Assembly: GCA_038087875.1 (NCBI GenBank)
Contig: CM075991.1
Location: 744,001-808,000, forward strand
Length of the DNA stretch: 64,000 nucleotides
DNA from: Malacoraja senta
Lineage: Eukaryota
Direction of reading: 5' to 3'
Position numbers and translations under genes: made by a program. The notes under the pieces were generated by a model, which was given only the letters and a program-made list of their open reading frames with translations, had not been told where the DNA came from and searched no databases. Shown here piece by piece: positions 2,060 to 62,431 of this stretch; the first letter of the stretch is position 1; each line of letters starts with the position of its first letter.

Positions 2060-2852
2060 AACTCCCTGGTTAACTCATCCCTTCCCACTCAAACCAGCCC
2101 CTCCCCTTCCCCAGCAACCGCAAGAGGTGCAACACTTGTCCCTATACCTCCTCCCTCAACTCTGTCCAGGGTCCCCGACAGTCCTTTCAGGTTAGGCAGA
2201 AGTTCACTTGTTCCTCCAACCTCATCTACTGTATCCGTTGTTCTAGATGTGGACTCTTATACATCGGAGAGACCAAACATAGACTGGGCAATCGTTTCGC
2301 TAAACACCTTCGCTCAGTCCGCCTGAACCAACCTGATCTCCCGGTTGCCAAACACTTTAATTCCCCTTCCCATTCCCACACTGACCTTTCTGGCCTGGGC
2401 CTCCTCCAATGTCAGAGTGAGGCCAAATGCAAATTGGAGGACCAGCACCTCATATTTCACTTGGGCAGCTTACAACCCAGTGGTATGAATATTGATTTCT
2501 CTAACATCAAATAACCCTTGCATTCTCTCCTCTCTATCCATCCCTCCCCCACCCGAGTCGTCTTGTTGAGTCTCATTGTCTGTAACTCGTTTTCACCTAG
2601 CCCACTGCTAACATTGGCCTTTCCTTTATCATTGTTACTTTTTGCATATGTTTCATTCATTTATTCTTATCTCTCTACATCAGCGTCTATATCTTTCGTT
2701 TCCCTTTCCCCTGACTCTCAGTCTGAAGAAGAGTCTTGACCTGAAACGTCACCTATTCTTTTTCTCCAGAGATGCTGCCTGACTCGCTGTTACTCCAGCT
2801 TTTTGTTTGTTTATTTGGTTTGAACCAGCATCTGCAGTTCCTTCCTGCACAT
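2060..2852 (+). mobile_element. Penelope-like element 3' fragment (GIY-YIG endonuclease relic, 3' UTR, terminal HHR unit)
   Basis: Homologous to 15208-15956; decayed LIYC..RCGLLYIGETK..LGNRFAKHLRS; ends in ctgaagaagagtcttgacctgaaacgtc...gcagttccttcctgcaca. Confidence 0.85.
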
Positions 2853-3009
2853 GTCGCCTATCCATGTGCTCCCAGGTGTTTATGTGACCTTAGCTCATCT
2901 AGCAAGCCGATACATTCATTAGGTTAGCCAGCATCTGTGGAAAGAGAAAGAGGTGATGTTTCAGGTTGAAGACCCTTCGTCAGAACTTTACATGTGTGCT
3001 ACCTATTCT

Positions 3010-3322
3010 TAATTTAGTTTAATTTACAGATACGGCACGAAAACAGGCCCTTTGGCCCACCGATTCCGCGCCGACCAGCGATCCCCACACACTAACGCTA
3101 CCCTGCACACACTAGGGATAATTTACACTTATACCAAGCCAATTAACCTACAAACCTGTACGTCTTTGGAGTGTGGGAGGAAACCGAAGATCTCGGAGAA
3201 AACGGTCACGGGGAGAAGGTACAAACTCCGTACAGGCAGCATCCGTAGTCGGGATGAAACCCGGGTCTCCGGCGCCACAAGCGCTGTAAGGCAGCAACTC
3301 TACCGCTGCGCCACCATGCCGC
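3010..3322 (-). mobile_element. V-SINE (HE1-like), full length
   Basis: Reverse complement of the SINE consensus; 8-bp TSD CCTATTCT at 3002-3009 and 3323-3330. Confidence 0.85.
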
Positions 3323-3513
3323 CCTATTCTGGTGGACTTAGATCCTTCTCTCCGTGGGCTGATAAAAATTACCTTAGCTAGGTCAGTGTATAATAAGATG
3401 TAAATTTAGTCTGCAATACTCTCTCACCTTTGTTATTTTCCAATCCACAAATGTGCTTTTGTTTTAATTTTAGGTTGCATTTATTCAGTGCCTGTTTCTA
3501 TTTTATTTTCCAG

Positions 3514-3583
3514 TGGGCAACACTACGAATAGAAAGGGGAGCCCGGGAGAGGAAGCACCTGATCTACAAGACTAACGCTAATG
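3514..3583 (+). CDS. GPAT4: GPAT4/AGPAT6 coding exon (first one in window; preceding coding exon lies upstream of the window)
   Basis: ttttattttccag| acceptor, |gtaggt donor; encodes WATLRIERGARERKHLIYKTNANG, resembling recalled human GPAT4 WATLRMERGAKEKNHQLYKPYTNG; 70 nt, phase 0-1. Confidence 0.9.
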
Positions 3584-3621
3584 GTAGGTGCTAATGGTGA
3601 ATATCCTGGTGTTTGGACAAT

Positions 3622-5060
3622 GTGTAGGAAGGAACTGCAGATGCTGGTTTAAACCGAAGATCAACACAAAATGCTGGAGTAACTCAGCGGGACAGGCAGC
3701 ATCTCTGGAGAGAAGGAATGGGTGATGTTTCGGGTCGAGACCCTTCTTCAGACTGGTTAGGGATAAGGGAACGAGAGATATAGACGATGATGTAGAGAGA
3801 TAAAGAACAATGAATGAAAGATATGCAAAAAAGTAACGATGATAAAGGAAACAGGCCATTGTTAGCTGTTTGTTGGGTGAAAACAAGAAGCTAGTGCAAC
3901 TTGGGTGGGGGAGGGATAGAGAGAGAGGGAATGCCGGGGCTACCTGAAGTGAGAGAAATCAATATTCATACCACTGGGCTGTAAGCTGCCCAAGCGAAAT
4001 ATGAGGTGCTGTTCCTCCAATTTGGGTTTAGCCTCACTCTGACAATGGAGGAGACCTAGGACAGAAAGCTCTGTGTGGGAATGGGAAGGAGAATTAAAAT
4101 GTTTGGCAACCGGGAGATCAGTTAGGTTCAGGCGGGCTGAGTGAAGGTGTTCAGTGAAACGATCGCCCAGTCTGCGTTTGTTCTCGCCGATGTATAAAAG
4201 TCCACATCTTGAACAACGGATACAGTAGATGAGGTTGGAGGAGGTGCAAGTGAACCTCTGCCTAACCTGAAAGGACTGTCGGGGTCCCTGGACAGAGTCG
4301 AGGGAGGAGGTATAGCGGAAAGGTGTTGCATCTTCTGCGGTTGCAGGGTAAGGTACCTGGGGAGGGGATGGTTTGGGTGGGAAGGGATGAGGGAACCAGG
4401 GAGTTGCGGAGGGAACAGTCTCTGTGGAAGGCGGAAAGGGGTGGAGATGGGAAAATGTGACTAGTGGTGGGATCCCGTTGGATGTGGCTGAAATTTTGGA
4501 GGATTATGTGTTGTATATGACGGCTGACGGGGTGGAAGGTAAGGACTAGTGGACCCTGTCTCTGTTGTGACTAGGGGGAGGGGAAGCAAGGGCGGAGCTG
4601 CGGGTTACTGAGGAGACACGAGTGAGGGCCTCATCTATGATGGGAGAGGGGAACCACCGTTCCCTAAAGAATGAGGACATCTCGGATGTCCTAGTATGGA
4701 ACACCTCATCTTGAGCGCAGATGTGGCGTAGACGGAGGAATTGGGAGTAGGGGATAGCAGGGTAGGAAGAAGTGTAGTCGAGATAGTTGTGGGAGTCAGT
4801 GGGTTGGTAATAGACATCAGTCAATAGTCTATTTCCTGTGATGGAGAAAGGGGAGGGAGGTGTCGGAGATGGTCCAAGTAAATTTGAATGCAGGATGAAA
4901 ATTGGTGGTGAAGTTGAAGTCCATGATGTTGGTTTAAAAGAACTGCAGATGCTGGTTTAAACCGAAGATAGACACAAAATGCTGGAGTTACTCAGCAGGA
5001 CAGGCAGCATCTCTGGAGAGAAGGAATGGATGACTTTTCGGGTCGAGACCCTTCTTCAGA
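3622..5060 (-). mobile_element. Penelope-like element (RT C-terminus, GIY-YIG) with HHR units in direct orientation at both ends
   Basis: Minus-strand ORF relic TDVYYQPTDSHNYLDYTSS..IPYSQFLRLRHIC (PLE thumb region); terminal units at 3622-3755 and 4937-5060. Confidence 0.85.
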
Positions 5061-5394
5061 ATCAATTGAGCAAGTTTTCTGGTTAGAGATGGCTTGGTCT
5101 CGAGCAGAATTTGACTGATCTGTTAAGGAGATCATTTTCTAATTCAACAGTGGAAGTGAAGCACCAGCATTGAATAGAAATTTTCAGCAAGAGCAGTTAC
5201 GATTTGCAAGACTTGTTGCTCTTTGCTATTTACTTACGTTCTGTAAATAAACCAAGGCAGCCTTATGAACTATTGGTCAATTTGTACTGTACTAGTCCAA
5301 ACTGTTGCAAAGTTGGGACATTTGAAACAATTAAAGCGTAATACACAGATCAAAATGCCTCCATGTTTTATGTATGCAAAATGCCTCCCTTGAC

Positions 5395-5648
5395 TCTGTC
5401 AAAGCCGCCACAGCCAGACATATAAGCAGCTTTTTACCACGAGCAGCAGCTCTACTCAACAGCCAAAAGTCTGTAGCCTCCTTGCGCTCTGGTATTTTAT
5501 TTCATTTTTCACATATTTAAATTATAATGTTTTATTTTTAATTGTCTACTGTAAATCGCGTTGTTATTTGCGAGCAAAGCACCAAGGCAAATTCCTTGTA
5601 TAAATACATATTTGGCTAATAAAATTTATTCAATTCAATTCAATTCAA
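5395..5648 (+). mobile_element. 3' end of an L2/Rex-like LINE
   Basis: Ends gcaccaaggcaaattccttgt...ttggctaataaa followed by a (ttcaa)n tail. Confidence 0.5.
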
Positions 5649-5862
5649 TGTATAATTAATCTGTCATGGATTTTTTTTCCTTGGCATTGTGGCATCTCTT
5701 GATTTGTACAAAGCACGTTCTCTCTCTGTTGATAATATCTCCAACAGATATTGCTGCATTGCGCCGTTAAAGTTAGGTTTTGAGCACAGTAGCCTGCTGA
5801 TTTCAATATTTTGAGTACAATATATCTGGTGACTTTTCCATAGAGTGTTTACCTTCTTCAGA

Positions 5863-5890
5863 CTGAAGAAGGGTCTCGACCCGAAACGTC
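5863..5890 (+). ncRNA. minimal type-I hammerhead ribozyme core (PLE type), intact consensus
   Basis: CTGAAGA-a-GGGT(ctcg)ACCC-GAAA-CG-TC: both conserved boxes, 4-bp stem II, palindromic ACGT stem III. Activity untested. Confidence 0.6.
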
Positions 5891-8814
5891 ACCTATTCCT
5901 TCGCTCCGTAGATGCTGCCTCACCCGCTGAGTTTCTCCAATATTTTTGTCTACCTTTATTCTTCCAGGATCTATCTTTGGCAAAGCCAGTATTTCCTGTG
6001 TATTCTTATCTTCCCATGGGGAGACTGTAACTGCTGGGCGCTAGTGGTAATGGGAATTAGTGGATAGGATGATGGATGGCCAACCAATCCAATGGTCTGC
6101 TTTGGAACACATGGAACTGCAAATGCTGGAATCTCGGGCAAAGCACAAACTGCTGGAGGAACTTAGAGCACTGCAGAGCAGACAGCATCTGGGAAGGGAA
6201 TGGACAAGGCAACATTTCGGGTCTTCTGACAAATGGTCTGCTTTGGATCTACCTTGGATTTGAGGAATGGTCCTGACCCGAAACCCCACCTATCCATGCT
6301 CTCCAGAGATGCAGCCTGACCCACTGAGTTACTGCAGCACTTAGTGTTATTTTTGTAAACCAGCATCTGCAGGTCCTTGTTTCTAAGTGTGCTTCTTTGT
6401 CTTGCATGATGTGGAACTCCTTGATTGTTGTTGTGGTTGTCCTCATTCATGCAAGTGCAGAGTATTTCCGCCCACTCCTGACTATGGGGTGTCATGAGGT
6501 AAGTCACATCAAGGTGTCGACCATCAGATGTGTTTTTTATGTGGCTGGTCCAGTTGAGTTGCTAACATCTGGGATGTTGATGATGGGAACTTGGTGATGC
6601 TAATGCCATTTAATATCAAGAATATGTGGATGGACTTTCTCTCGCTGGAGAAAATCATTGCCTGGCACTTTTGTGGCATTGATGTCACAGTGGGTGTCAA
6701 GGGCAGTCACCCCACCACTGGAATTCAACATTCTGGTCCATGCAAGGAGTTGAGGTGTTGGGGAGCTCCATCAGTAAGCAGGTACTTGGAGAATCAGAGC
6801 CAGTTAAAAACACAGTTAGTGACTTCTTCCATTGCTCTGCTGATTTATAGTAAGCTGTGTGGATGGCAATTAGTCAGGTTGGATTTGTCAGCTCTTTGTT
6901 AAACAGGTCATCTTCCCACATTGTCCAAGCCACATTACTATCACATCTTGAATAGAGACACAGTTGTGGCGTGGTGGACTGATTACTGTGGGAATGCCCC
7001 ACGAGCCTTTGTTGTGTCCAGTGCTCTCAGGCATTGAATTGAATTGGCTGAAGATGCTCCATCTTGTCTTCCTCCTGAGAGCCTCACCAACGCAGGATCC
7101 ATTCTCCAACTAGTGCAACACTGCACATGGTGTCACAGAATGGGTGAGAGCATTGGATACTTCAAAGACTGGGGCTAAATGACATCTCATCTGGTGTACT
7201 GCTGACCTACGCTTCAGATCCAACTGTGCCATGAGGCAAGCTGTTCCAGTACCATTCCAACACTAGTATCTACCAGAAAATGTGTAAAAATGCTTAGTTA
7301 TGCCCTTTTCACAAAATACAGAGCAAACCCAATTCAGCTAATCAAAGGTTCCGAGGGTATTTTATTGTCACGTGTACCAATTAAGGCACAGTGATATTCG
7401 ATTTAGTGTGTAATCTGTCAAAGACTTGTACAAGATGATGGAAAATGATAATCAATAGTTTTATCTCGTAGATAGACACAAAAAATCCCTTCATAAGAAG
7501 GGTGTCGATCTGAAACATCACCTATTCCTTTTTTTCCAGGGATGCTGCCTGACACGCTTAGTTACTCCAGCTTTTTGTGTCTCTGGTGTAAACCAGCATT
7601 CCGACACAAGATTGGGGTTCTGTCAGACCTCTATAGCCCCAGACCTCTACTTCAAACATGGGCCGAAAAACAATATTCTCGGAGTGAGATGAGTGTGTTT
7701 GCCCTTGACATCAAGCCAATGTTAGACCAGGTGTGGCATCAAGGAGCCAGGGATCCGGGTTCGATCCTGACTACGGTGCTGACTGCTTGGACTTTTACGT
7801 TCTTCCTGTGATCATGTGGGTTTTCTCCGGGTGTTACGGTTTCCGCCCACATTCCAAAGATGTGCAGGTTTGCAGTTTAACTGCCTTCTGTAAATTGCCC
7901 CTAGTACACAGGATGTGAAAGTGGGAAAACATAGAACTAGTGTACAGATGATCGATGATAGGCATGGACTTGGTGGGCTGAAGGGCCCACGCTATCTCTG
8001 TAAACAGGTCAAAGTGCATCAGGATCCTAGATACAACAGAGAAACAGGCCCTTCGGTCCAACTCATCATGCTGACCAAGTTGCCTACCTGAGCCTATTCG
8101 AATTGACCGCGTTTTGCCTCTAACCTTTTCCTGTCCACATGTCTGTCTAAATATCTGTTAAATGTTGTAATGGTATCGGCCTCTATCACTTCCTATGCCT
8201 TGTTCTATGTACCCACCAACCTGTGTGTCTGAAAACGTTCCCTTTGGATTCCCTTTAAATCTCTCACCTCAAACCAATGGCCGCTAGTTTGAGATTCTCC
8301 TACCCTGGAGAAAAGATTGACCATTGACCTTATCTAGGCCCATCATGATTTTATATATCTTCAACAAGGACTTTGATAAGATCAGCCATGATCACAGTGA
8401 ATGGCAGTGCTGGCTTGAAGGGCCGCATGGCCTACTCCTGCACCTATTGTCTATTGTTCTGCATGATAGGCTGCTGGAGAAGGTTAGATTGCAAGGGAAA
8501 CAGGGAGAGCGAGTTAACTAGATACCGAATTGTAGACACAAGGACCTACAGATGCTGGAATCTTGCCTAGAAGACCAACTGCTGGAATAACTCAGCGGGT
8601 CAGGCAGCATGGACATGGATAGGCAACGTTTCAGGTTGGGAGCCCTCTTAAGACTGATTGTTGTGGGGGAGAGAAAGCTGTACAAGAGGAGGGACCGGGA
8701 CAAAGCCTGGCGAACGATAGGTGGATATCGGTAAGAGGGATTTTTGATTTGGCAGATGACTGGACAAAGAGTCCAATTGTGGTTTCACCAATGACTTGTA
8801 AAGTTGTGACATGA

Positions 8815-9053
8815 AGGGCCCGTCCCACTTGGGCGTTATTTGCACGTCACGCAGGTGGCGCTCGAGGATTTTGAGAATCCCAAAATCCTGGGATGCCGTG
8901 CGCTACCGAGCGTCACTGCCTACGTCACCACGCGCCATGCGCGCATAATGCACACCATGCGCGCATCACGCGTGCGTTACGACGCGTGCGTCGTGATGCG
9001 TAAGCGATGTCGCGTAAATGACGTGCAAATGACGCCCAAGTGGGACAGGCCCT
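8815..9053. mobile_element. MITE, PIF/Harbinger-like
   Basis: 35-bp TIRs AGGGCC(C/T)GTCCCACTTGGGCGT(T/C)ATTTGCACGTCA; 3-bp TSD TGA (8812-8814, 9054-9056); no transposase; CpG-rich. Confidence 0.85.
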
Positions 9054-10183
9054 TGACGTTCCAACTTCTTTATTCAATGCCCTTACTAATGAAGACCAAT
9101 GCCTTCCTCACTACCTTGTGTGTCTGTGTCGCCACTTTCAGGGAATATGTACTTGTTTCCCTTGGGTGCCTCTGTTCTACAACATTCTCCAGGCCCTGCC
9201 ATTTACTGTGTACATCCCTCGTTTATCTTCCCAAAGGTATCACTCAGCACTTATCCGAGTTAAATACTATCTAAAAATGACACAAAGTGCTGGAGTAACT
9301 CAGCGGGTCAGGTAGCATCTCTGGAGAACATGGATAGGTGATGTTTCGGGTCAGACTCCTCTTCAGACTGATCCACCTGACATTCATCAGCCTATTTTTC
9401 CCAGTTGATCTAAATCCTGTTGTAATCTTAGATAGCCTTCACTGTCCACTGTACCACCAAATTTGGTGTCATCCACAAACTTACTAACCAAACTTGCCAA
9501 CTACTACATTCCCATTCAAAATCATTAATATAGATGGCAAACAACTGTGAACCCTGTGGCACACTACACAGGCATCCCAACTTCTACCCTCTCTCCTTCC
9601 ACCAAGCCAATTCTTTATCCAGTTGCTCAACCTGGATCCCTCTCAACCTTCCAGACCAACCTACCACCCTTCGGTATTCCGGTACCTCAACCAACGCTAA
9701 CCATGGCAAATATCTTTGCTGGGATCCCAGCAATTTCCTCTCTGGCTTCCCACAATGTCTGAGGATGCACCCAGTCAGGCTTTGGGGATGTATCCACCCT
9801 TGCATTTTAAGAGAGTCATCTCCTCCTCTTTTATGAGGTGAATATGTTCATCTTCCCTGAACTCAGCTTGGCCATGGTAATACAAACAAAAAATGTTCAT
9901 TTAAGACTTTGAGGGAAATACTCACAGGACGGAGTTAAACCTTGCACGGGGGTGGTTGTGATTGTCAAAGACTATTAAACCCAACCCCAGCACATCTTTA
10001 CAGGAGTTGCTCCAGACCATGTCCCAGGGGTCAGTATCATCACGTTTCATCAAAGACTGACCATCATAAACATTGAGGCTGGGATATTCACTGATGATTG
10101 CACCACGATAAATTTGATTTACAACTCCTCATCAAATGCAGCAGTTCATCTCTGCATGTGAAAAGACATAGAACAAATTTAGG

Positions 10184-10569: not shown

Positions 10570-11447
10570 GAACAAATTTAGGGATGGACTGATGAGTGGC
10601 AGGTAACATTTGTGCCACAACACCGTCAGGCAATGGCCATCTCCAGCATTCAGCGGCATTCTCAACCCGAAACATCACCCATTCACGTTCCCCAGAGATA
10701 CTGCCTGACCTGCTGAGTTACTCCAGCACTTTGTGTTATTTTTTGCTACTTTCAGTGTGTTTATAACATTATGGACTGTGGTGGTTATTAGCATGAATGT
10801 TTCCTGTCCATGTTTGCCCTGACACCGTGAGGGTTTGCGGTATCTGGAGGTGACATTGAGCATTGTGGCTACTTCATCTATTTATGTACCCGTATGCTGA
10901 CCCCCTGTGGTGCGGCTCACCTGCTGGTGGAACAGAACATGCACACCGATTGTTAGGGTCCAGTCTGGCAGTTCTAAGGTATTCTTTGATGATAACTACA
11001 TCAGATTGTTGATTGACACCTCACCCAATTTAACGATGCCAGTTCTCAGATGTTTAACAAGGATTTTTTAATGTTGATGGCTGGGAGCAACTTTGTCGTG
11101 TCTGAATTCAATGCTGAAGTCAATCCTGCAAGGTCTGTCAAGTTTCACCATGTTTTAAATATAGATGACCAGTTTGCTAGGCCATTTTTGGCAGTCATTT
11201 AAGAGTCTACCACTTAACTACTCTGAGTGAAGACGTTAATCCTCACTTTCCCCTTGTATCTTTTTCTTGAAATCAGTGTTCCCAGTTCCTTGAACAATCT
11301 AATAATGGATGTTGTTATGTAGGACCCGAGGGACTATCAGAAAGACAGATGGGAGTAACTTCTCTATTTACTCTGCAGAAACCAGTTATTGGATTGGTGA
11401 CGTTTTGGGTCTGATATTTCGGGTCAAAATGTCACCTATCCATGTTC

Positions 11448-11578
11448 GGCGGTAGGCAAAAGTACTGGAGAAACTCAGCGGGTACGGCAGCATCTATGGA
11501 GCGAAGGAAATAGGCAACGTTTCGGGCCGAAACCCTTCTTCAGACTCGATTTTCCAGCATCTGCAGTTCCTTCTTGAA
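11448..11578. mobile_element. PLE HHR unit with inverted 5' part, nested in an older unit
   Basis: Antisense arm with intact HHR core (minus strand, 11516-11543), then sense 3' tail; TSD CACCTATCCATGTTC at 11433-11447 and 11579-11593. Confidence 0.8.
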
Positions 11579-12173
11579 CACCTATCCATGTTCTCCAGTG
11601 TTGCTGCCTGACCTGGAGTTATTCCAGTACTTTGTCTTTTTTTTGTATAAATCAGCATCTGCATTTCCTTTTGCACACGTTTCTGAAGTCTCTCGGCCAT
11701 TTGCTCCTTTTGGTGAAGAACCCCAGAGCCCCTGGTCTAACAATGCCGTGAGATGCCTCATTCTTGGAGCCATTTCGAGTGGGTGTCACTGTTAATCCTT
11801 CTTCATTCCTATCGTGCTGCAACTAGAAGCAAACATACCATTTCGGATGTGGTGTAGCCAGCTTTTTGAATTCATCATGAGTTGCCTGCTTTTGAATTTT
11901 GTGACTCTATATAAGTCACAAATGTTTTACTAACTACTGACAATATATTTTGTAACCTTCAGAATATATGTACCTATGTACTGAGACCACAGAACTGTCA
12001 GTTCCTGCGCAATGCTCAAAATTGACATTTAGTTTGTATTGTCTCTCCTTATTCTTTCTATCAAAATATAATACTTCCCTCTTCTTATATTTCATTTCAT
12101 TTGTCCCTTATCTGTCCATTCAGCTGGCCTGCAGTCCATTTACAAGGTTTGTAAATTTGGAAATGTTACCTTG

Positions 12174-13004: not shown

Positions 13005-13903
13005 CCTTGTCTCTAGTCATTAATAAATATCAACATCATCAGCGGTCCCCAGAACTGACCAGTGGGGAACACCACTACCTCTGTGAAAAACAACCCTTTA
13101 CCACTGAGCTAAAAATCAAACTGCTGGAGGAACTTAGCAGGTCAGGCAGAATCTGTGGAGGGAAATGTATAGATAAAGTTTCAAGTCAGGACCCTCCTGC
13201 AAGCAACCGTCTATTACTACACTCTGCTTACGCCTTTTCACTGTACCTCGGTACAGGAGACAATAAACTCAAAGACAATTTCTCGCCTGTGGTGCTGGTG
13301 ACACATGAATTTTCGGAGCCATAATCCTGCAATAATAATCTCAGCAATCCACAAAATCACTTGTTTGTTCCTTTGTCAGTTCAAAAATTGGATAATCCCA
13401 ACCAACAATATTCTAATTGGGTTAACAAACAACTAGTGTGAATGGGCAATTGGCGTTTGATGTGCACTTGGTGGGCCAAAGTTTCCATGCTGTAATTCGA
13501 AACTAATGCAGAAAATAGAAACAAGGAACTACAGATGCTGGTTTACAAACAAAGACTCAAAATGCTGAAGTAACTCAGCAGGTCAGGCAGCATCTCAGGA
13601 GAACATGGACAGTGACAATTTGGGGCAGGTCCCAAACTGAAATGTCTATGAACCTATCTGTGTTCTCTAGAAAAGCTGCCTGATCCACCAAGTTACTCTG
13701 GCACTCGTGTCTTTTAATGATGTAGTCGACTTTGGAAATATGAGGAATAAGGATACAAGAAATTCTGGCTGATTAGAAACAGTGGTTTAGACTCAGGGGA
13801 CTAGAGATCAGTCCCAGCATGAAAGCTGTGGAATTTAAAATCAGTTAATGATATAGACTTAAAATAAATGACCATACAGCTCCCTACACATGACTCCAGC
13901 AAT

Positions 13904-15956
13904 AATCAAACCTGCCGACAAGGGAGGTGCCGTGGTAGTCTGGCGTGCTGTGGCCAGGCGACAACTCTCAGACACCTCCTCCTACTTATCCTTGGACTGT
14001 GATCCCACAGACAAGCACCAGGCTTTAAACCCACACACCATTTCTGATTTCATCACTTCTGGCTGTCTGCCTTCCACAGCCTCCAACCTTATCGTTTCCC
14101 AGCCCCGCACAGCCCCGTTTTACCTTCTTCCCAAAATCCACAAACACAACTGCCCTGACAGACCCATTGTTTCTGCCTGCTCCTGTCCCACAGAAATTAT
14201 TTCCACATACCTCGACTCCATCCTATCCCTCCTATTCCAATCTCTCCCAACCTATGTCCAAGATACCTCACATGCCCTTCGTCTCTTCAATGACTTCTGT
14301 TTTCCGAGCCCCCACTACCTCATCTTTACTATGGACGTTCAGTCACTCTACACCTCCATCCCCCACCAGGAAGGCCTGAAAGCCCTCCGTTTCTTCCTCG
14401 AACGCAGAACCATTAGATTTCCCTCTACTAACACTCTACTAGTGGAGCTGGTCCTTACCCTCAACAACTTCTCCTTCGACCCCTCCCACCTCTTCCAAGT
14501 CCAAGGCGTAGCTATGGGCACCCGCATGGGCCCCTACTACGCCTGCCTCTTTGTAGGGTACGTTGAACAATCCCTGTTCCAGGCATACACTGGCCCTATC
14601 CCCAAACTCTATCTCCGTTACATTGATGACTGCATCGTTGCTACCTCCTACACCCATGCAGCTCATGGACTTTATCAACTTCACCACCAATTTCCATCCT
14701 GCAAAGACTCTATCCTCTACTCCCAATTCCTCCGTCTACGCCGCATCTGCGCCCGAGATGAGGTGTTCCATACTAGAACATCCGAGATGTCCTCATTCTT
14801 TAGGGAATAGGGGTTCCCCTCTCCCATCATAGATGAGGCCCTCACTCATGTCTCCTCTGTACTCCACATCTCAGGCCTTGATGCCCGTCCCCCTAGTCGC
14901 AACAGACAGTCTCCCGAGTCACATCTTCCACCCCATCAGCCGTCGCATACAACACATAATCCTCTGAAATTTCTGCCACCTCCAATGGGATCCCACCACT
15001 AGTTACATTTTCCCATCTCCACCCCTTTCTGCATTCCGCGGAGGCCGTTCCCTCCGTAACTCCCTGGTTAACTCATCCCTTCAAGGGTTTCGACCCGAAA
15101 TGTCACCCATTCCTTTTCTCCAGAGATGTTGCCTGTCCCGCTGAGTTACTCCAGCTTTTTGTGTCCGTCTTCGGTTTAAACCAGCATCTGCAGTTCCTTC
15201 GTACACATTAACTTATCCCTTCCCACCCAAAACCACCCTCTCCCCAGGTACCTTCCCCTGCAACCGCAGAAGATGCAACACCTGTCCCTATACCTCCTCC
15301 CTCGACTCTGTCCAGGGACCCCGACAGTCCTTTCAAGTTAGGCAGAGGTTCACTTGCACCTCCTCCAACCTCATCTACTGTTCCATTGTTCAAGATGTGG
15401 ACTCTTATACACCAGTGAGACCAAACCTAGACTGGGCGATCGTTTCACTGAACACCTTCGCTCAGCCTGCCTGGACCTACCAGATCCCCCGGTTGCTGGA
15501 CACTTTAATTCCCCTTCCCATTCCCACACTGACCTTTCTGTCCTAGGTCTCCTCCATTGTCAGAGTGAGGCTAAACGCAAATTGGAGGAATAGCATCTCA
15601 TATTTTGCTTGGGCAACTTACAGCCCAGTGGTATGAATATTGATTTCTCTAACTTCAGGTAGCCCCGGCATTCCCTCTCTCTAACCCTCCCCCACCCAAG
15701 TCACACCAGCTTCTCGTTTTCACCCAACAAACAACTAACAATGGCCTGTTCCCTTTAGTATCGTAACTTTTTTGCATATGTTTTATTCATCGTCGATATC
15801 TCTCGTTTCCCTTATCCCTAACCAGTCTGAAGAAGGGTCTTGACCAGAAACTTCACCAATTCCTTCTGTACAGAGATGCCGCCTTTCCCGCTGAGTTACT
15901 CCAGCTTTTTGTGTCTATCTTCGGTTTAAACCAGCATCTGCAGTTCCTTCCCACGC
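13904..15956 (+). mobile_element. Neptune-type Penelope-like retroelement, 5'-truncated and decayed
   Basis: RT motifs IIKPADKGGAVVVW, LLPKIHK, RPIVS, MDVQSLYTSIPH, QGVAMG, YLRYIDD; Cys linker CNRRRCNTC; GIY-YIG relic; terminal HHR unit; TSD ACTCCAGCAAT (13893-13903, 15957-15967). Frameshift and internal deletion near 14660-14700. Confidence 0.92.
15083..15207 (+). mobile_element. solo PLE terminal unit inserted inside the PLE ORF
   Basis: TSD TTAACT(C/T)ATCCCTTC at 15068-15082 and 15208-15222. Confidence 0.85.
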
Positions 15957-18605: not shown

Positions 18606-19446
18606 TAGACACAAAGCGCCAGAGTAATGGAGGAGGCCCAGGACAGAAAGGTCAGATTGGGAATGGGAGGGGGAGTTGAAATGCTGAGCCACCGGGAGAT
18701 CAGGTCGGTTAAGACGGACTGAGCGGAGGTGTTCAGTGAAACGATCGCCGAGCCTGCCCTTGGTCTCGCCGATGTAGAGAAGTTGACACCTGGAACAGCG
18801 GATACAGTAGATGAGGTTGGAGGAGGTGCAAATGAACCTCTGCCTCACGTGGAAAGACTGTTTGGGTCCTTGGATGGAGTCGAGGGGGAAGGTAAAGGGA
18901 CAGGTGTTGCATCTCCTGCGGTTGCAGGGGAAAGTACCTGGCGAGGGGGTGGTTTGGGTGGGAAGGGACGAGTTGACCAATGAGTTTCAGAGGAAACGGT
19001 CTCTGCGAAAGCAGAGAGGGGTGGAGATGGGAAGATGTGGTCAGTAGTGGGATCCCGTTGGAGGTGGCAAAAATGTTGGGCCTTTTTGTCCTGGGCCTCC
19101 TCCATTGTCAGAGTAAGGCCCAGCGCAAATTGGAGGAACAGCACCTCATATTTTGCTTGGGTAGCTTACACCCCAGTGGTATGAACATTGACTTCTCTAA
19201 CTTCAAATAGCCCTCGCTTTCCCTCTCTCTCCATCCCCTCCCCCTTCCCAGTTCTCCCAACAGACTTACTGTTTACGACTACGTTCTATCTTTGTCCTGC
19301 CCCCTCCCCAGACATCTGAAGAAGGGTCTCGACCCGAAACGTCACCCATTCCTTTTCTTCAGAGATGCTGCCTGTCCCGCTGAGTTACTCCAGCACTTTG
19401 TGTCTACCTTCAATTTAAACCAGCGTCTGCAGCTCTTTCCTACACA
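18606..19446. mobile_element. Penelope-like element with inverted 5' segment (GIY-YIG on minus strand, 3' end on plus strand)
   Basis: Minus ORF 18582-18980: FPCNRRRCNTCP...CTSSNLIYCIRCSRCQLLYIGETKGRLGDRFTEHLRS; switch to plus strand near 19080; intact HHR core at 19316-19343. Confidence 0.88.
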
Positions 19447-22064: not shown

Positions 22065-22267
22065 GATAGACACAAAATGCTGGAGTAACGCAGTGGGACA
22101 GGCAGCATCTCTGGAGAGAAGAAATAGGTGACGTTTCAGGTCGAGACCCTTCGTCATGGTTGAGACCCTTCTTGTCTCTCCAGAGATGCTGCCTGTCCTG
22201 CTGAATTACTCCAGCAATTAGTGTCTACCTTCGGTTTAAACCAGCTTCTGCAGTTCCTTTCCACACA
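22065..22267. mobile_element. palindromic PLE terminal-unit element
   Basis: Antisense arm starting gatagacacaaaatg, sense arm ending ccacaca; TSD GATTCA(T/A)ATGCTGGA at 22050-22064 and 22268-22282. Confidence 0.82.
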
Positions 22268-28179: not shown

Positions 28180-29860
28180 GAAGGTTGTTGCGAAATATTG
28201 AGGGGTGGGATTGATGTTCACTTGGAAAGGCAGGGAATGAATAGGAGGAATCAATGTGAATTTGTGCAGGGGAAGATCATGTCGCACAAATCTGCATCTT
28301 TTGAGGAGGTAACTGAGAAAAGTGCTGAAGGCAGAGGGATTCATGTGGATTAGAGTAAGGTTTTTGACAAGGTCCATTGGGGTGGACATTACAGAAGGTA
28401 TGGCACAAGGGAATGAGATGTGTGACAGACTGGATCCAAGGTTGGCTTGGTGGTAAGCAGAGGGAGTGGTGGATGGGTGTTTCCATGGCCAGAAATCTGT
28501 AACATGGTGTACTGCAGGGATCAGTTCTTTGTTGTTGTAATATATTGAAATGACTTGGATGGGAATGTAGGTGTTCTGATTAGTGAGTTTGCTGACAACA
28601 TGAAAATTGGCAAAGTTGTAGATAGTGAAGAAGATTGGTCAAAGGTTATTAGCAGGACATAGATCAGGTGGAAATTTGGGCAGAGTGGTGGCATGAGTCT
28701 GAAGAAGGGTCTCGACCCGAAACGTCACCTATTCCATTTCTCCAGAGATGCTGTCTGACCCGCTGAGTTACCAGCTTTTTGTGTTGATCTCCAAAGTGGT
28801 GGCAGATGGAATTTAAGCCAGACAACTGTCGATAATGCTCTTTGTGAGGTCAAATTCTGGTACAACATATAGTGGAAATTGCAGGGATCTTGAGAGCGTC
28901 AGAGAGACTGTTGTGTGCATTCATAGACTACTGAAAGTAGCAACACAGGTGGATAGGGCAGTGAAAAATGCAGCTGTGAGAAGGGATCTTCAATGGGGGA
29001 GCCAGCGGGGCAGGTGAAGAGTCCTTGCCAAAGACCTAGACACAGTGGTGGCGAGGTGATGGAAGAAGAGCTCAATATCATGATGGTCCTGGGACTTGTT
29101 GACATGCTGGTGCAGGATTACAAAGGCAATATACTTACCTTCATAGGATGAGGCATTAAGTTCGAGAATTGGGTCACTATGTTGCAGTTTTACAAAACAT
29201 TGGTAGACCACGCTGATTGTATTGTGTACAGTTCTGGTCACCACACCACAGGAAGGATGTGATGACAATGGTGAGAGATTCATCAGGATGTTGCCAGGAA
29301 TGGAGGCTACAGTTATTAGTAGGATAGACACAGTCTGAAGAAGGGTCTCGACCCAAAACATCACCCATTCCTTCTCTCCATATAAGTAACTTAGCCTGTC
29401 CTGCTGAGTTACTCCAGCATTTTGTGCCTACCTTCAATTTAAACCAGCATCTGAAGTTCTTTCCTACACAGCTGTTTGGAGGGATCGGATTGGCTTGGTT
29501 TATAAAATCATAAATCCAATGTGAAGGCAGAGGAGATGTGGGGAACATATGTAAGCCAGTAGAAATAGAGTATGGGTGCAGGAGATAGAGCAGAAAAGGA
29601 CATCTTGAGGGGTAGTTTTTTCACACAGAGTGGTGTTTATCTGGAATGAATGGCTAGAGGAGGTGGTCGGGGCAAATGCAATTACAACATTGAAAAGGTG
29701 CTGAGACTGGTACTTGGATGGAAAGGTTTAGGCCTAATGTGGACTAATACAGGATACAGGCCTAATGTGGACTAATAGGAGAATGCAGATGAGCATCACA
29801 GTTGGCATAAAGGAGTTAGGTCAAATGGCCCATATCTCCACTGGACGATACTATGATTCT
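28180..29860 (+). mobile_element. old CR1 ORF2 relic with nested PLE units
   Basis: Decayed RT motifs (tttgctgacaac = FADN for FADD; cagttctggtcacc = QFWSP). Nested units at 28697-28791 (intact HHR core 28699-28726; TSD CA(G/A)AGTGGTGGCA) and 29332-29470. Confidence 0.75.
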
Positions 29861-41757: not shown

Positions 41758-43177
41758 TGTGTAGGAAGGAACTGCAGATGTTGGTTTAAACCGAAGATAG
41801 ACACAAAATGCTGGAGTAGCTCAGTGGGACAGGCAGCATCACTAGAGAGAAGGAATGGGTGATGTTTTGGGTCGAGAGCCTTCTTCAGACTGAGAGTCGG
41901 GGGGAAAAAGAATCGAGAGAATGAGACAGGGATGTAGAGAGAAATAGAACAAATGAATGAAAGATATGCAAATAAGTACAATGATAAAGTTAACAGGCCA
42001 TTGTTAGCTGTTTGTTAGGTGAGAACAAGAAGCTGGTACGACTTGGGTGGGGGAGGGATGGAGAGAGAGGGAATACAGGGGCTGCTTGAAGTTAGAGAAA
42101 TCAATATTTATACTACTGGGTTGTAAGCTGCCCAAGCAAAATATGAGATGCTGTTCCTCCAATTTGCAGTTATCCTCACTCTGACAATGGAGGAGACCTA
42201 GGACAGAAAGGTCAGTGTGGGAATGGGAAGGAGAATTAAAGTGTTTGGCAACCGGGAGATCAGGTAGGTCCAGGCGGGCTGAGTGAAGGTGTTCCGCGAA
42301 ACGATCGCCCAGTCTGGTTTTGTTCTCGCCGATGTATAAAAGTCCACATCTTGAACAATGGATACAATAGATGAGGTTGGAGGAGGTGCAAGTGAACCTC
42401 TCCCTAACCTGAAAGGACTGTCGGGATCCCTAGACAGAGTCGAGGGAGGAGGTATAGGGACAGGTGTTGCATCTTCTGCGTTTTCAGGGGAAGATACCTG
42501 GGGAGGGGGTGGTGGGTGGGAAGGGATGAGTTAACCAGGGAGTTGTGGATGGAACAGTCTCTGTGGAAGGCGGAAAGGGGTGGCGATGGGAAGATGTGAC
42601 TAGTGGTGGGATTCCGTTGGAGGTGGCAAAAATGTTGGAGGATTATGTGTTGTATGCGGTGGCTAATGGGGTGAAAGGTGAGGACTAGGGAGATTCTGTC
42701 TCTGTTGCGACTGGGGGAGGTGGAGCAAGAGCGGAGCTGCGAGGTACCGAGGAGACACGTGTGAGGGCTTCATCTATGATGGAAGAGGGGAACCCCTGTT
42801 TCCTAAAGAACGAGGACATCTCGGATGTCCCAGCGTCTCATATTTCGCTTGGGCAGCTTACAACCCAGTGGTATGAATATTGATTTCTCTAACTTCAAGT
42901 AACCCTTTTATTCCCTCTGTCCCCATCCCACCCAAGTCGCACCAGCTTCTTGTTCTCACCTAGCAAACAGCTAACAATGGCCTGTTTACTCTATAATCAT
43001 TACTTTTTGCATATCTTTCATTCATTTGTTCTATATCTCTACATCACTGTCTATATCTCTTGTTTCCCTTTCCCCTGACTCTAGTCTGAAGAAGGGTCTT
43101 GACCCGAAATGTTACCCATTCCTTCTCTCCAAAGATGCTACCTGTACATCGGAGTTACTCCAGCATTTTGTGTCTAT
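41758..43177 (-). mobile_element. Penelope-like element with long inverted terminal segment
   Basis: Minus-strand 3' end, GIY-YIG and thumb relic 41758-42830, then plus-strand copy of the 3' region 42831-43177; TSD CTTCCTTTTC(G/T)TTC at 41744-41757 and 43178-43191. Confidence 0.88.
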
Positions 43178-54272: not shown

Positions 54273-54968
54273 ATCCTGGTGAGTGTCCTCTGTATCTTCT
54301 CCAGGGCAGTCAGAGAGCCAAGCAGCACAAATACCGGCCCACCAGCCCAACGTCAATGCTGACTAAGATGCCCCCATCTAAGCTCGTCACACTTGCCCGC
54401 ATTTGGTCCATATCCCTCTAAATCTTTCCTATCTTGTATCTGTCCAAATGTCTTTTACATGTTGTTACTGTATCTGCCTCAACTATCTCCTCTGGCAGTT
54501 TATTCCAAGTACCCTCCACCTTCTGGGTGGTCATGGACATACAGAGCACACAAAGGCTGTACATCATACCAACCGTTGAGGACCCATCTATATTCCCATC
54601 TTTCCAGCTCATGGTCCCTGGCCTTCTATCCCTTATCAATCCCTCTGGATGGTGGGTATGGGTAGGACAGATTTAGAGAGATATGGGCTCATCGTGGGCA
54701 GGTGGCGCAGCATAGATGTGGTGTCTTTGGGCAGCGTGGATAAGTTGGGCCAAAGGGCCTGTTTCCGTGCTGTATGACTGAATAAAAATGTTGATTCTCA
54801 GGCTCCAATTAAATCTTGCCCCTCTCACTTGCCCCTCTCCCCTAAACCCATGACCTCTGGTTCTTGATTCCCCTATCCTGGGTAAAAGACTGTGCATTCA
54901 ACCTATATATTAGTGCTGTAATATGGTCATGTGGTGATATCAGAAATATGCAAGGTTGTACCATACCA

Positions 54969-56295
54969 CAGGAGATAGAAAATTGGCTCCATGGAAGGAA
55001 GCAGAAGTTGGTGGTGGAAGGTTGCTTCTCGGACTGGAGGCCTGTGACTAGTGGTGTTCCTCAGGGTCCGGTGCTGGGCCCGTTACTGTTTGTCATCTAC
55101 TTCAATGATTTGGATGAGAACAAACATGGCAAGATTAGCAAGTTTGCTGATGATACAAAAGTGGGTGAGTTTGCAGATAGTGAAGATGGTTGTGAAAAAT
55201 TGCAGCGGGATCTTGATCGATTGGCCAGCTGCGCTGAGGAATGGTTGATGGAATTTAATGCGGAGAAATGTGAGGTGTTGCATTCTGGGAAGTCTAACAT
55301 AGGCAGGACCTACACAGTGAATGGTTGGGCTCTGGGGAGTGATGTAGAGCAGAGGGATCTAGGAGTACAGGTGCACTTGAAGGTGGAGTCGCAGGTAGAT
55401 GGGGTGGTCAAAAAAGCTTCTGCAACATTGGCCTTCATTGAGTCAGGGTATTGAGTGTAGAAGTTGAGAGGTCATGTTGCAGTTGTATAAGATGTTGGTG
55501 AGGCCGCATTTAGAATGTTCAGTTCTGGATAGATGCTGTCAAGCTGGAGAGGGTACAGAAAAGATTTACAAAGATGTTGCCAGGACCAGAGGGTCTGAGC
55601 TGTAGGGAGAGGTTGAATAGTCTGGGTCTGTATTCCTTGGAGCGCAGGAGAATGACAATAGACAATAGAAGGTACACAAAAATGCTGGAGAAACTCAGCG
55701 GGTGCAGCAGCATCTATGGAGCGAAGGAGATAGGCAACGTTTCGGGCCGAAACCCTTCTTCAGACCCTAGACAATAGACAATAGTTGCAGGAGTAGGCCA
55801 TTCGGCCCTTTGAGCCAGCACCACCATTCAATGTGATCATGGATGATCATCCCCAATCAGTACCCCGTTCCTGCCTTCTCCCCATATCCCCTGACTCCGC
55901 TATCTTTAAGAGCCCTTTAATGAGGGGTGATCTTATAGAGGGTGTATAAAATCATGAGTGGAATAGATCGGGTAGATGCACACAGTCTCTTGCCCAGAGT
56001 AGGTGAACCGAGGACCAGAGGACATAGGTTCAAGGTGAAGGAAAAAAGATTTAATAGGAATCTGAGGGGTAACTTTATCACACAAAGGGCGGTGGGTGTA
56101 TGGAACAAGCTGCCAGAGGAGGTAGTTGGGGCAGGGACTATTGCAACATTTAAGAAACAGTTAGACATGTACATGAAAAGGGCAGGTTTGGTGGGATATG
56201 GACCAAACGCAGGCAGTGTAGCTGTTGGCCGGTGTGGGTAAGTTGAACGGAAGGGCCATTTTCCAGGCTGTATCACTCTACGACTCTATGACTCA
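54969..56295 (+). mobile_element. CR1/HER1-like LINE 3' portion with nested PLE arm and CR1 tail (~55653-55916)
   Basis: ORF relics SGVPQGPVLGPLLFVIYFNDLD..SKFADDTKV and YKIMSGIDRVD..WNKLPEEVV; the nested arm has an intact minus-strand HHR core at 55736-55763. Confidence 0.9.
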
Positions 56296-60181: not shown

Positions 60182-60379
60182 GTAAGTACATTCCTTCCGT
60201 TATATTACCCTGTAGAGTTGAGCACTGGCTGTGGCCGTCACATCACATGCACAATGTCATAAACGTGTCCCTTCTCTAAATATGTACAGTAAACACTCCC
60301 TATTACGGACCCCTTTATAATGATTTATGAAGTGCAGCTCCTTCCTACACTATTGAAGAGGGAATTGGATAGACTTGAC

Positions 60380-60933
60380 TTTAAACTTTAGAGATACAGT
60401 GTGGAAGCAGGCCCTTTGGCCCACAGAGTCTGCGCACTGCCCCATACTCAAGTTCTATCCTACACACCAGTGACAATTTTCAATTTTACTGAAGCGAATT
60501 AACCCACAAACCAGGACGTCTTTGGATTGTGGGAGGAAACCGGAGAGGCCGGAGAAATCCCATGTGGTCACAGGGAAAACGTACAAACTACATACAGAGA
60601 GCACCTGTAGTCACGATCGAACCCGGGTCTCTGGCACTGTTAGACAGCAACTCTACTGCTGCGGTGCATCACAGCATTAGAGACCCGGATTCGATCCTGA
60701 CCTAGGGTGCTGTCCGTGTGGAGTTTGCACGTTCTCCTCGTGGCCGTGTGGATTTCCGCTGGGTGCTCCGGTTTCCTCCCACATCCCCAAAATGGGTGGG
60801 TTTGTAGGTTAATCATTGTAGGTTAATGTGTAGGGAAGGGATATGAAAGTGGAATGACAAGGATCTGGTGTGAATGGATGGCATGGCCTGAAGCGACTGT
60901 TTCCATTCTATGACTTTCAATCAATCAATCAAT
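60380..60933. mobile_element. head-to-head V-SINE pair (- then +)
   Basis: Minus copy ~60380-60663 fused to plus copy ~60665-60933 ending in (tcaa)n. Confidence 0.75.
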
Positions 60934-60954
60934 AGCCAATTTTGCTTGATCTCT

Positions 60955-60987
60955 GAACAGCAGAAGCTGTACAGCAGGCTCATTGTG
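60955..60987 (+). pseudogene. 33-bp relic duplicate of part of the last GPAT4 exon
   Basis: 29/33 identical to 62478-62510, including 21 contiguous matches; reads EQQKLYSRLIV vs EQQKLYSRMIV. Confidence 0.75.
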
Positions 60988-61482
60988 CCCAGGTGGTTTG
61001 GCGATTACAGCCTAGTTGTGTTGTGGTTATATTTTAGCCCTGCTCCAGGTACCTCAGAGGTAGTTAGGAATCAAACACATTGGTGAGTCTAGAGTTAGAT
61101 TTCAGTTACCTGCCATGCATTAAAATCATGTCCTTGGCACCATTGTACCTCAACCATCAAACAGTCTTGATCATTAATGATTTTGACATACTTCACTGAA
61201 AATCCACAGCCACTGGGGATAAAGAATTTCAAAATGTTGCAACCCCTTTAAGAAAGAGAGCATAATCTGGAGGAAATCTAGACAGAACACAGACAAACCC
61301 GGTTTGACCCCGTATTTTTGGTATCTACAGGATATTTATGAATGGTTTGTATATTTAAATGTTTACATATTTGAGAAATCAAAGGAAAATGGGCTGATTT
61401 AAATATCAGCTTGGCGAATGGGTAGCTTACAGTAGTAACATTGAATTCTCCAATTTTATGTAACTAACCTACAAACAACCTT

Positions 61483-61694
61483 GTTTAAGAAGGAACTGCA
61501 GATGCTGGAAAATCGAAGGTAGACAAAAATGCTGGAGAAACTCAGCGAGTGAGGCAGCATCTATGGAGCGAAGGAAATCGGAAAAGTTTCGGGTCGAAAC
61601 CAGTCTGAAGAAGGGTTTCGACCCGAAACGTTTCCTATTTCCTTCGCTCCATAGATGCTGCGTCACCCGCTGAGTTTCTTCAGCATTTTTGTCT
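61483..61694. mobile_element. palindromic PLE HHR element
   Basis: Exact 16-bp TSD ACCTACAAACAACCTT (61467-61482, 61695-61710); intact plus-strand HHR core from 61605. Confidence 0.88.
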
Positions 61695-62431
61695 ACCTAC
61701 AAACAACCTTTTTCTTTTCTTCCACCCTCTTCTGTGTCCCACCTCAACACACAACCATCTCTCCCCCCCCTTTCCTCTTCACAATTCACACCTCCTCTAT
61801 CCTTATCTCAGTCTTCTGCCTAATCATCTCTGGCCCTTGTCGTCGTAAGATCATCTGATATAAGCAGAATTAGGCCATTTGGCCCATCAAGTCTACTCCA
61901 TCATTCAATCATGGCTGATCTATCTCTCCCTTCTAACCCTATTCTCCTGCCTTCTCCTCATAACCCCTGACACCTGTACTAATCAAGAATCTATCTATCT
62001 CTACCTTAAAAATATCCATTGACTTGGCCTACCCACAGATTCATCACCCTATCTGGTGGTCCAACTATCTGCCAACCTCTCCCCCCCCCCCCTCCCCACC
62101 CATCCTTGGTGGGATTGTCCTGTCCCCTCCTCTCATCCAGCTTTCTCACCCCCCTGCCCCCACTACAATCACAGAAGAAGGGTCCTGACCCGAGATGTTA
62201 CCTATCCATGTCCTCCAGAGCTGCTGCTTGACCAGCTGAGTTACTCCAGCACGCTGTTTCTTTTGTTGGATGACTCCATGGTTTTGAATGGGCACAGAGC
62301 AGGCTGGTACACGCCGGGGTGAACAGTCTACATGTACCATTATGTTGTGTTCTTCCCCGGGTCTGTAGTTGACCAGGATTTAACATGATGTGCTGGTTGG
62401 GGGATTGACCTGGCTTGTGCGGTCATTTCAG

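What the first reader, a model, noticed from the sequence alone, without database searches (positions are those of the whole stretch)
2720..62262. A ~130-nt hammerhead-ribozyme unit from Penelope-like elements moves as its own mini-retroelement (~40 loci in 64 kb)
Seen: the motif agt-CTGAAGA-a-GGGT(c/t)TCG(a/g)CCC-GAAA-CG-T(C/T) heads a ~130-nt unit ending ...gcagttccttcctacaca. It ends every PLE fragment here and also occurs alone or as palindromes at about 40 loci (eye count), several with their own 11-16 bp TSDs (e.g. 15083-15207 inside a PLE ORF; 28697-28791 inside a CR1). Stem II stays paired across subfamilies (GGGT/ACCC vs GGGT/GCCC wobble; loop CTCG or TTCG). Intact cores: 5863, 19316, 28699, 61605 (+); 11516-11543, 55736-55763 (-). 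Established: CUGANGA/GAAA/NUH is the hammerhead core, and PLE terminal repeats carry minimal type-I HHRs with a palindromic stem III thought to work as dimers. Inference: a very high-copy non-autonomous ribozyme retroposon mobilised by the Neptune-type RT/GIY-YIG protein. Caveat: stem I is only ~2 bp and most copies have CpG-decayed cores.
Basis: partly seen in the sequence, partly recalled or inferred. Interest (0 to 1): 0.72.

Follow-up and report, generated by a model that had tools for sequence, protein, structure and literature searches.

The report
Fixed-start stubs of a Penelope retrotransposon
These short repeats are the hammerhead-bearing end piece of a very abundant, still-intact Penelope-like jumping gene; about half of sampled young copies start at one fixed spot just before the ribozyme motif and not at its cut site, likely because the element's own enzyme runs off the start of its RNA, so they are probably by-products and not a separate mini-element.

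Summary
In detail: 55-59 hits at 42 loci in the window, all six named cores intact, and the unit ends all 5 Penelope-like (PLE) insertions. Unbiased samples give 280-605 copies per Mb. It is the pseudo-LTR segment (minimal hammerhead plus 'tail') of a young PLE with intact 1,238-aa RT/GIY-YIG copies. In 100 consecutive young copies (C of CTGAAGA = 0), 51 5' ends fall in -6..+7, stopping at the A of a conserved YCAGTC. Only 5 fall near the predicted cut (+28). 3' ends fall at two sites, about +94 and +130. So solos are discrete products, but the ribozyme does not set their usual start, and no solo-only lineage was found among 143 young copies. Best reading: RT primes at two internal sites in the RNA leader and runs off an RNA start at -3 (inferred; no RNA ends were available). 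Against the simplest version: 0 of 10 full-length inserts start there. Hints of real cleavage: a 1.6-1.9-fold excess of ends at +28, and an 11-mer array whose monomer starts exactly there. The kind is published; this scan noted the same stubs in other genomes.

The parts
2074..2514 (+). PLE C-terminal fragment (Cys motif + GIY-YIG endonuclease)
   Evidence: Pfam GIY-YIG E 1.5e-4; 72% identical to the intact genomic ORF
2715..2851 (+). Unit ending that PLE fragment, joined to its 3' UTR
3621..4933 (-). 5'-truncated PLE (thumb to endonuclease, 4933-3946) ending in the unit at 3759-3621
5857..5971 (+). Solo unit with intact hammerhead core at 5863
11430..11580 (.). Young-subfamily unit on the minus strand (core at 11543) joined head-to-head to the tail end of a second arm
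13872..15956 (+). 5'-truncated PLE (RT to endonuclease) ending in the unit at 15819-15956
   Evidence: Pfam RVT_1 E 2.1e-9; tblastn to the intact ORF
15083..15207 (+). Stub starting at +6, inserted into the PLE ORF; 15-bp duplication 15068-15082 / 15208-15222 with one mismatch
   Evidence: sequence printed
18627..19446 (.). PLE 3' end with an inverted 5' piece (19061-18627 -, 19082-19204 +) ending in the unit at 19313-19446; intact core at 19316
28694..28794 (+). Short-form stub starting at -3 after a 2-nt filler; intact core at 28699; 10-bp duplication 28684-28693 / 28795-28804
41758..42825 (-). 5'-truncated PLE ending in the unit at 41896-41758
55666..55768 (-). Young short-form stub, intact core at 55763, 15-bp duplication
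61482..61700 (.). Head-to-head pair with one long and one short arm, 16-bp duplication, intact core at 61605
2715..62273 (.). All 42 unit loci in the window (55 hits >=25 bits), of several ages and subfamilies

Best explanation
The unit is the hammerhead-plus-tail segment found at both ends of an intact Penelope-like retrotransposon, and solo copies are likely short cDNAs made when that element's own enzyme primes at one of two internal sites (about +94 or +130) in the RNA leader and runs off an RNA 5' end at the A of YCAGTC (-3), likely the transcription start. Shown: the anatomy, the two 3' ends, the 5' pile-up, the 12-17 bp duplications, the shared haplotypes, and one long plus one short arm in head-to-head inserts. 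Taken from the literature: internal initiation at two adjacent sites and extension of both target strands (PMC11167929, in vitro, another PLE clade). Inferred: that -3 is an RNA start; that head-to-head inserts record both nicked strands being primed, one at each site; that the ribozyme is usually uncut in stub templates and cut in a few percent; that long and tandem copies come from a different template (read-through multimer or ligated circle) with no end at -3.
For: Intact elements: unit - 163 nt - ATG - 1,238-aa ORF (RVT_1, GIY-YIG) - 3' UTR - unit. 100 consecutive young copies anchored at +55..+92: 34 5' ends in -6..-1, 17 in 0..+7; per-base loss 0.085 against about 0.001 farther upstream. 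Genome-wide exact-pattern windows: 3,926 for ends at -4..0 against 169 for -11..-7 (about half of its 100 listed rows are a one-C deletion variant). The 100 listed rows, counted by hand and corrected for chance matches, give 6/27/33/10/24 ends at -4/-3/-2/-1/0. YCAGT is 93-97% conserved in 186 UTR-linked copies although the UTR farther upstream differs between subfamilies. 3' ends: 65 at +93-96 and 28 at +124-134 of 100. 26 of 31 inverted rows have one long and one short arm (rows include both views of some events). Short repeats of the first 10-35 nt sit at several 5' junctions, as expected if RT reaches a template end and jumps. No solo-only haplotype.
Against: No RNA end was measured: only assembled contigs were offered. 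0 of 10 independent full-length inserts with a 5' unit start at the wall; all carry upstream UTR (-28 to beyond -3308; p 0.0008 at the stub rate), so a single linear RNA primed at its 3' unit does not explain them. A cap-derived G is not established: 4 of 4 fillers before -3 end in G, but only 35 of 100 listed -3 starts have G before them (hand count; p 0.08 at 28% background). In D. virilis Penelope the transcript starts about 120 nt upstream and an intron ends at helix I (PMC2377424, PMC4209133), so the same position is a splice acceptor there. The initiator consensus used here is recalled, not from a call.
Confidence: 0.6

Rival explanations
1. One reading: solos are their own non-autonomous family. 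A mainly internal promoter lets a solo be transcribed from -3, and the PLE protein copies it in trans; fixed start and internal priming would leave no flank behind.
For: Stubs outnumber linked copies (150 of 182 core-reaching copies in unbiased samples, an over-count because old UTRs were missed). The D. virilis promoter is internal (PMC2377424) and pLTRs suffice for mobilisation in trans (PMC3846280 passages). One allele (T to C at +34) is in 6 of 94 short and 0 of 48 linked copies (p 0.10); short copies of the youngest variant are somewhat more diverged (0.029 vs 0.012, p 0.06). This model also explains why full-length inserts do not start at -3.
Against: All common haplotypes are shared; the commonest young haplotype is in 31 short and 24 linked copies; none of 17 alleles tested differs at p<0.05. 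Stubs track each PLE subfamily in turn. Most stubs have lost part of YCAGT and most older ones the core.
Confidence: 0.2
2. The wall is not a transcription start but an RT stall or an RNA processing point at the 5' edge of the folded hammerhead, for example the pyrimidine-tract CAG acting as a splice acceptor as in D. virilis.
For: Pyrimidine-rich UTR followed by CAG; the intron end maps to helix I in D. virilis (PMC4209133).
Against: 60 of 100 corrected ends keep G(-2) or A(-3), which splicing would remove, and no common exon 1 precedes solos. A structural stall should also stop full-length cDNA at the 5' unit, yet 0 of 10 stop there. No GT..AG joint into this site among the joints listed from 8 contig sets (lists were cut).
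Confidence: 0.13
3. Hammerhead cleavage creates the template's 5' end and so defines the unit.
For: Among 100 listed ends at +26..+30, 30 events (25 after dropping 5 likely indels) start at +28 against 16 expected (p 0.001-0.02; hand count). An 11 x 138-bp array has a monomer of exactly +28..+165. Joints back to +28/+29 appear in contigs of two other runs (table 5c).
Against: The +26..+30 window holds 571 matches against 3,926 at -4..0, and is no larger than +16..+20 (897, about half indel variants); 5 of 100 sampled ends lie at +27..+33. It can account for only a few percent of stubs.
Confidence: 0.04
4. Ordinary random 5' truncation of PLE insertions.
For: 32 of 100 young copies do show scattered ends from -16 to -2251; PMC4209133 read single motifs as probably truncated PLEs.
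Against: Per-base loss at -6..-1 is about 80 times that upstream; genome-wide counts agree.
Confidence: 0.03

Closest known systems
Endonuclease-positive Penelope-like elements with minimal hammerheads in their pseudo-LTRs (PMC4209133; PMC8557442; PMC3846280), probably Neptune clade
   Same: RT + C-terminal GIY-YIG ORF, partial tandems, inverted 5' copies, optional 30-40 nt tail on one end, type-I minimal hammerhead with an extra base before helix II and a palindromic helix III, many single motifs genome-wide.
   Different: The texts read do not describe a fixed 5' boundary 2-3 nt before the core in half of the insertions, nor a one-long-one-short arm count; copy number here (rough estimate 0.5-0.9 million, 3-6% of sampled DNA) far exceeds the 4,000-9,000 intact motifs reported for coelacanth and Xenopus, although those counts used a strict descriptor.
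PAc (Poseidon of Anolis carolinensis) in vitro mechanism (PMC11167929)
   Same: Two internal RT start sites downstream of the hammerhead that define the tail; both strands extended; cleavage not needed for insertion.
   Different: In PAc the ORF starts inside the ribozyme; here the long ORF's ATG is at +163. That paper reports no fixed 5' end and no reads ending at the cut site.
Animal non-LTR retrozymes (PMC7229834; bioRxiv 10.64898/2026.07.22.740005)
   Same: ORF-less, hammerhead-bearing, derived from PLE pLTRs; monomers dispersed over chromosomes. One array elsewhere in this genome (L279, 13 x 384 bp) meets the preprint's working definition.
   Different: Retrozymes are tandem arrays, with canonical active ribozymes and circular RNAs in PMC7229834; the window's units are single or head-to-head with a 2-bp helix I, and the L279 junction occurs at one locus only.

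Membership tests
EN+ Penelope-like element | Single ORF with RT and C-terminal GIY-YIG endonuclease | tested here: met
   1,238-aa ORF, RVT_1 E 6.6e-6 and GIY-YIG E 0.0015, both under Pfam's curated cut-offs; window fragment RVT_1 above cut-off
EN+ Penelope-like element | Partial-tandem pseudo-LTRs and inverted 5' copies | tested here: met
   11 of 20 long-ORF loci have the unit at both ends; 29 of 67 short young copies have an inverted arm
EN+ Penelope-like element | Optional 30-40 nt tail | tested here: met
   3' ends at +93-96 and +124-134, modes 36 nt apart
Neptune clade | Zn-finger-like Cys motif between RT and endonuclease | tested here: met
   C-x4-C-x2-C just before the endonuclease; feature from PMC8557442 passage, shared with Nematis
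Neptune clade | RT phylogeny with named Neptune references | not tested
   The 120 listed homologues carry no clade names; no reference set was available
Minimal type-I hammerhead | CUGANGA and GAAA boxes, G10.1-C11.1, extra base after A9, palindromic 15.2-16.2, NUH | tested here: met
   0 of 15 core positions vary among 4 subfamily consensuses against 13 of 68 downstream (p 0.11)
Minimal type-I hammerhead | Self-cleavage as dimer or with protein help | not testable with these tools
   Only indirect hints at +28; monomer folding does not give the hammerhead fold, as expected for this class
Independent non-autonomous family (SINE-like) | Discrete ends and own target-site duplications | tested here: met
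   24 of 38 non-inverted short copies have a duplication of >=8 nt
Independent non-autonomous family (SINE-like) | Own lineage with diagnostic variants absent from the autonomous partner | tested here: not met
   143 young copies, so a minor lineage could be missed
Non-LTR retrozyme | Head-to-tail array of two or more units with complete ribozymes | tested here: not met
   No head-to-tail array among the 42 window loci; met only by L279 elsewhere in the genome
Non-LTR retrozyme | Circular RNA | not testable with these tools
   No raw RNA reads were offered

The most novel reading that the evidence does not exclude
The genome records a two-template life cycle for a Penelope-like element. Capped linear RNA starting at -3 yields only stubs. 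Hammerhead cleavage and ligation make an endless template, on which the same two priming sites yield long, partial-tandem and arrayed copies. This would give the PLE ribozyme an in vivo job and explain how pseudo-LTRs are regenerated. It fits 0 of 10 full-length inserts starting at the wall, the excess of ends at +28, the 11-mer array whose monomer begins at +28 and ends at the long priming site, and the 13-mer array of identical monomers inside one 11-bp duplication.
Probability: 0.25. Interest if true: 0.75.

Novelty: new member of a known kind. Interest (0 to 1): 0.42.

Why it matters
[quoted passage not shown] A young family with over 20,000 exact copies of one 38-mer and intact ORFs gives base-level footprints that make three steps testable: where the RNA starts, which strand uses which priming site, and whether cut or circular RNA is ever the template. 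It also matters for annotation, since a repeat covering 3-6% of sampled DNA would be mis-filed as a SINE. The element class, the ribozyme and PLE-derived non-autonomous repeats are already published.

Tried and rejected
Rfam scan: no hammerhead or other relevant family. RNA evidence: no RNA holder listed; only contigs. Laying 8 contig sets gave no usable starts (table 6 empty); loose ends cluster near 3364-3369, 3454-3465 and 3493-3498 of L172, in line with the same ends in other organisms, but the tables were cut and are not counted as evidence. Cap-G test: inconclusive. Within-family decay of core positions was about half that of downstream positions, but the sample was chosen for having the core, so it is not used. 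Shared 5' flanks among solos: the few pairs were insertions at the same place of other repeats, duplicated loci or missed UTRs. The 384-bp ORF-less monomer as a spreading family: 12 of 12 junction matches are in one array. An upstream ATG at +50 opens a 41-codon frame in the youngest family but, read by eye from the consensus, closes early in the older one. The window host exon gave no Pfam or PDB hit. Literature: 10 searches returned no paper whose title, abstract start or the passages read describe this family in cartilaginous fish or a fixed stub start. Most subscription papers, Repbase and Dfam were not searchable, Lunse et al. (PMC5785218) is not held, and no supplements were opened; those of PMC4209133 and of the 2026 preprint (one chondrichthyan genome) may list this unit.
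Full report
Numbering. Position 0 is the C of CTGAAGA. The predicted hammerhead cut lies between +27 and +28.

1. Observation. A profile from 11 window copies finds 59 hits and none in 5 reversed or shuffled controls. A broader profile gives 55 hits at 42 loci. A strict descriptor matches 13 cores, 8 with four stem II pairs, including all six named. All 5 PLE coding fragments end in the unit, and both named duplications exist. Exact duplications of 9 nt or more were found at 4 of 42 loci against 5 of 500 random positions. Rfam has no matching family.

2. Scale. The window lies in a 1.94-Gb genome. One exact 53-mer occurs 2,828 times and one exact 38-mer of the young subfamily 20,771 times. Sixty 10-kb stretches chosen without regard to the unit hold 56, 121 and 97 hits per 200 kb, covering 2.9-5.7% of the DNA, with 0 hits in the reversed control. 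Scaling the two dispersed sets gives a rough 0.5-0.9 million copies. The closest named proteins are elasmobranch (57-75% identity in the rows seen), so the host is probably a cartilaginous fish.

3. The autonomous partner. A protein search returned many identical RT matches in open frames up to 1,302 aa. Of 20 such loci fetched, 11 have the layout unit - ATG at +163 - 1,238-aa ORF - about 110 nt of 3' UTR - unit; two of the 11 are the same locus, leaving 10. The ORF has RVT_1 and GIY-YIG matches and a C-x4-C-x2-C motif before the endonuclease, which PMC8557442 (passages) assigns to Neptune and Nematis. The unit is therefore the element's leader and, through the partial tandem, also its 3' end.

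4. Ends of insertions. I took the first 100 matches on contig C1 to a 38-mer at +55..+92, which does not select for the 5' end. 3' ends: 65 at +93-96, 28 at +124-134, 7 elsewhere. This is the PLE tail, which PMC11167929 (main text read) ties to two internal RT start sites. 5' ends after gapped alignment: 34 in -6..-1, 17 in 0..+7, 7 in +8..+26, 5 in +27..+33, 4 in +34..+55, and 33 upstream of -6, of which 2 were cut off by the locus edge. Per-base loss is 0.085 at -6..-1 and about 0.001 between -20 and -1000. Most -5 calls are overlaps at inverted junctions. Genome-wide windows of the same design gave 169 (-11..-7), 3,926 (-4..0), 897 (+16..+20), 571 (+26..+30) and 167 (+36..+40) matches. The templates differ in CpG content, and many listed rows are indel variants, so these counts are approximate. 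The 100 listed rows, counted by hand and corrected for chance matches, give 6, 27, 33, 10 and 24 ends at -4, -3, -2, -1 and 0: a wall at the A of YCAGTC. That motif is 93-97% conserved in 186 UTR-linked copies whose UTRs otherwise differ. It matches the polymerase II initiator consensus as I recall it; PMC3846280 (passages) notes an initiator-like TCACT in a rotifer pLTR. Duplications are mostly 12-17 bp. Of 67 short copies 29 carry an inverted arm, and 26 of 31 inverted rows pair a long with a short arm; some events are seen from both strands and some misses are alignment breaks.

5. Is it its own element? Among 653 core-reaching copies, each of the four main haplotype groups occurs alone, inverted and UTR-linked. 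Among 143 young copies (95 short, 48 linked; long-ORF picks dropped) none of 17 alleles differs at p<0.05, and the commonest haplotype is shared 31 to 24. In the 100-copy set one subfamily marker (+28) gave p 0.046, meaning the older variant has more stubs. One allele is confined to short copies (6 of 94 vs 0 of 48, p 0.10). No solo-only lineage is shown; a minor one is not excluded, and the D. virilis promoter is internal (PMC2377424, results and discussion read), which would allow it.

6. The ribozyme. The motif fits the minimal hammerhead of PMC4209133 (results and discussion read): extra base after A9, G10.1-C11.1, palindromic CG, and a 2-bp helix I as in D. virilis. The core is invariant over four subfamily consensuses (0 of 15 vs 13 of 68, p 0.11), and the one stem II change is a wobble. 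It does not set the usual start. Hints of some cleavage: 30 events (25 after dropping 5 likely indels; an 11-row array counted once, 10 indel rows set aside) start at +28 against 16 expected (hand count). That array (L281) has a 138-bp monomer equal to +28..+165 and ends at +130; it is one locus, and no duplication was seen at its ends. A second array (L279) has 13 copies of a 384-bp ORF-less monomer with a whole ribozyme, 11 monomers identical and one with an indel; it ends near +92 inside an 11-bp duplication, and its junction occurs nowhere else. Later expansion at the DNA level explains both arrays as well as rolling-circle copying does.

7. Mechanism. Most likely (0.6) the PLE protein binds the leader, primes at +94 or +130 and runs off an RNA start at -3. 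One primed strand gives a solo; both strands primed, one at each site, give the head-to-head pair. The RNA start is inferred. A cap-derived G is not established (4 of 4 fillers; 35 of 100). The main difficulty is that 0 of 10 full-length inserts start at -3, and neither do the other unit-to-ORF copies whose 5' end could be mapped. Long copies must come from a template with no end there: a read-through multimer, as PMC11167929 proposes, or a ribozyme-made circle, as PMC4209133 proposes. Rivals: solos as their own masters (0.2), stall or splice acceptor (0.13), cleavage as the main route (0.04), random truncation (0.03).

8. Novelty. Minimal hammerheads in pLTRs, abundant single motifs, inverted copies and tails are published. 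[quoted passage not shown] Ten searches found no description of the fixed start or of this family, within a library that lacks most subscription papers, Repbase and Dfam. Earlier agents of this scan reached the same stub reading in other genomes. My reading was written before that look-up, and their notes are not independent support. Verdict: new member of a known kind, with mechanistic footprints worth testing; interest 0.42.

Noticed in passing
L281/L282 (G000:C1:27,817,364-27,818,778): 11 x 138-bp array whose monomer runs from the first base after the predicted ribozyme cut (+28) to +165 and which ends at the long priming site; a candidate rolling-circle copy of a cleaved and ligated RNA.
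   Followed up: partly
L279:2218-7230: 13 x 384-bp ORF-less array (3' UTR + unit + start of ORF) with nearly identical monomers and an 11-bp duplication; meets the working definition of a non-LTR retrozyme; single locus.
   Followed up: partly
L172, L174/L185, L176: Three of 10 full-length inserts, with different flanks, begin at -316 to -319: a possible second preferred 5' end inside the endonuclease coding region.
   Followed up: no
L179: Both units of this tandem carry the same private one-base insertion, as if copied from one template.
   Followed up: no
L171:3417-3542: An upstream ATG at +50 opens a 41-codon frame that overlaps the main ATG, next to a splice-donor-like AAG/GTATG at +162; seen in the youngest family only.
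   Followed up: partly
rows (4 of 100 listed): Copies in which the first bases of the unit join directly to +28/+29, removing the hammerhead core, possibly by RT jumping across helix I.
   Followed up: no
L210/L254/L276; L242/L271: Independent insertions at the same position of other high-copy repeats, suggesting target preference.
   Followed up: no
window 16455-16841 (+): Likely host coding exon; resembles glycerol-3-phosphate acyltransferase 3/4 from memory only, with no Pfam or PDB hit.
   Followed up: partly
window about 8810-9270 and 22225-22620: Two copies of another repeat rich in CG and ACGCG words, not part of the PLE unit.
   Followed up: no
window 35220-37115, 40495-41448, 54846-55454: Several LINE-like RT fragments (40498-41448 has RVT_1); the CR1 label is recalled, not tested.
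   Followed up: no
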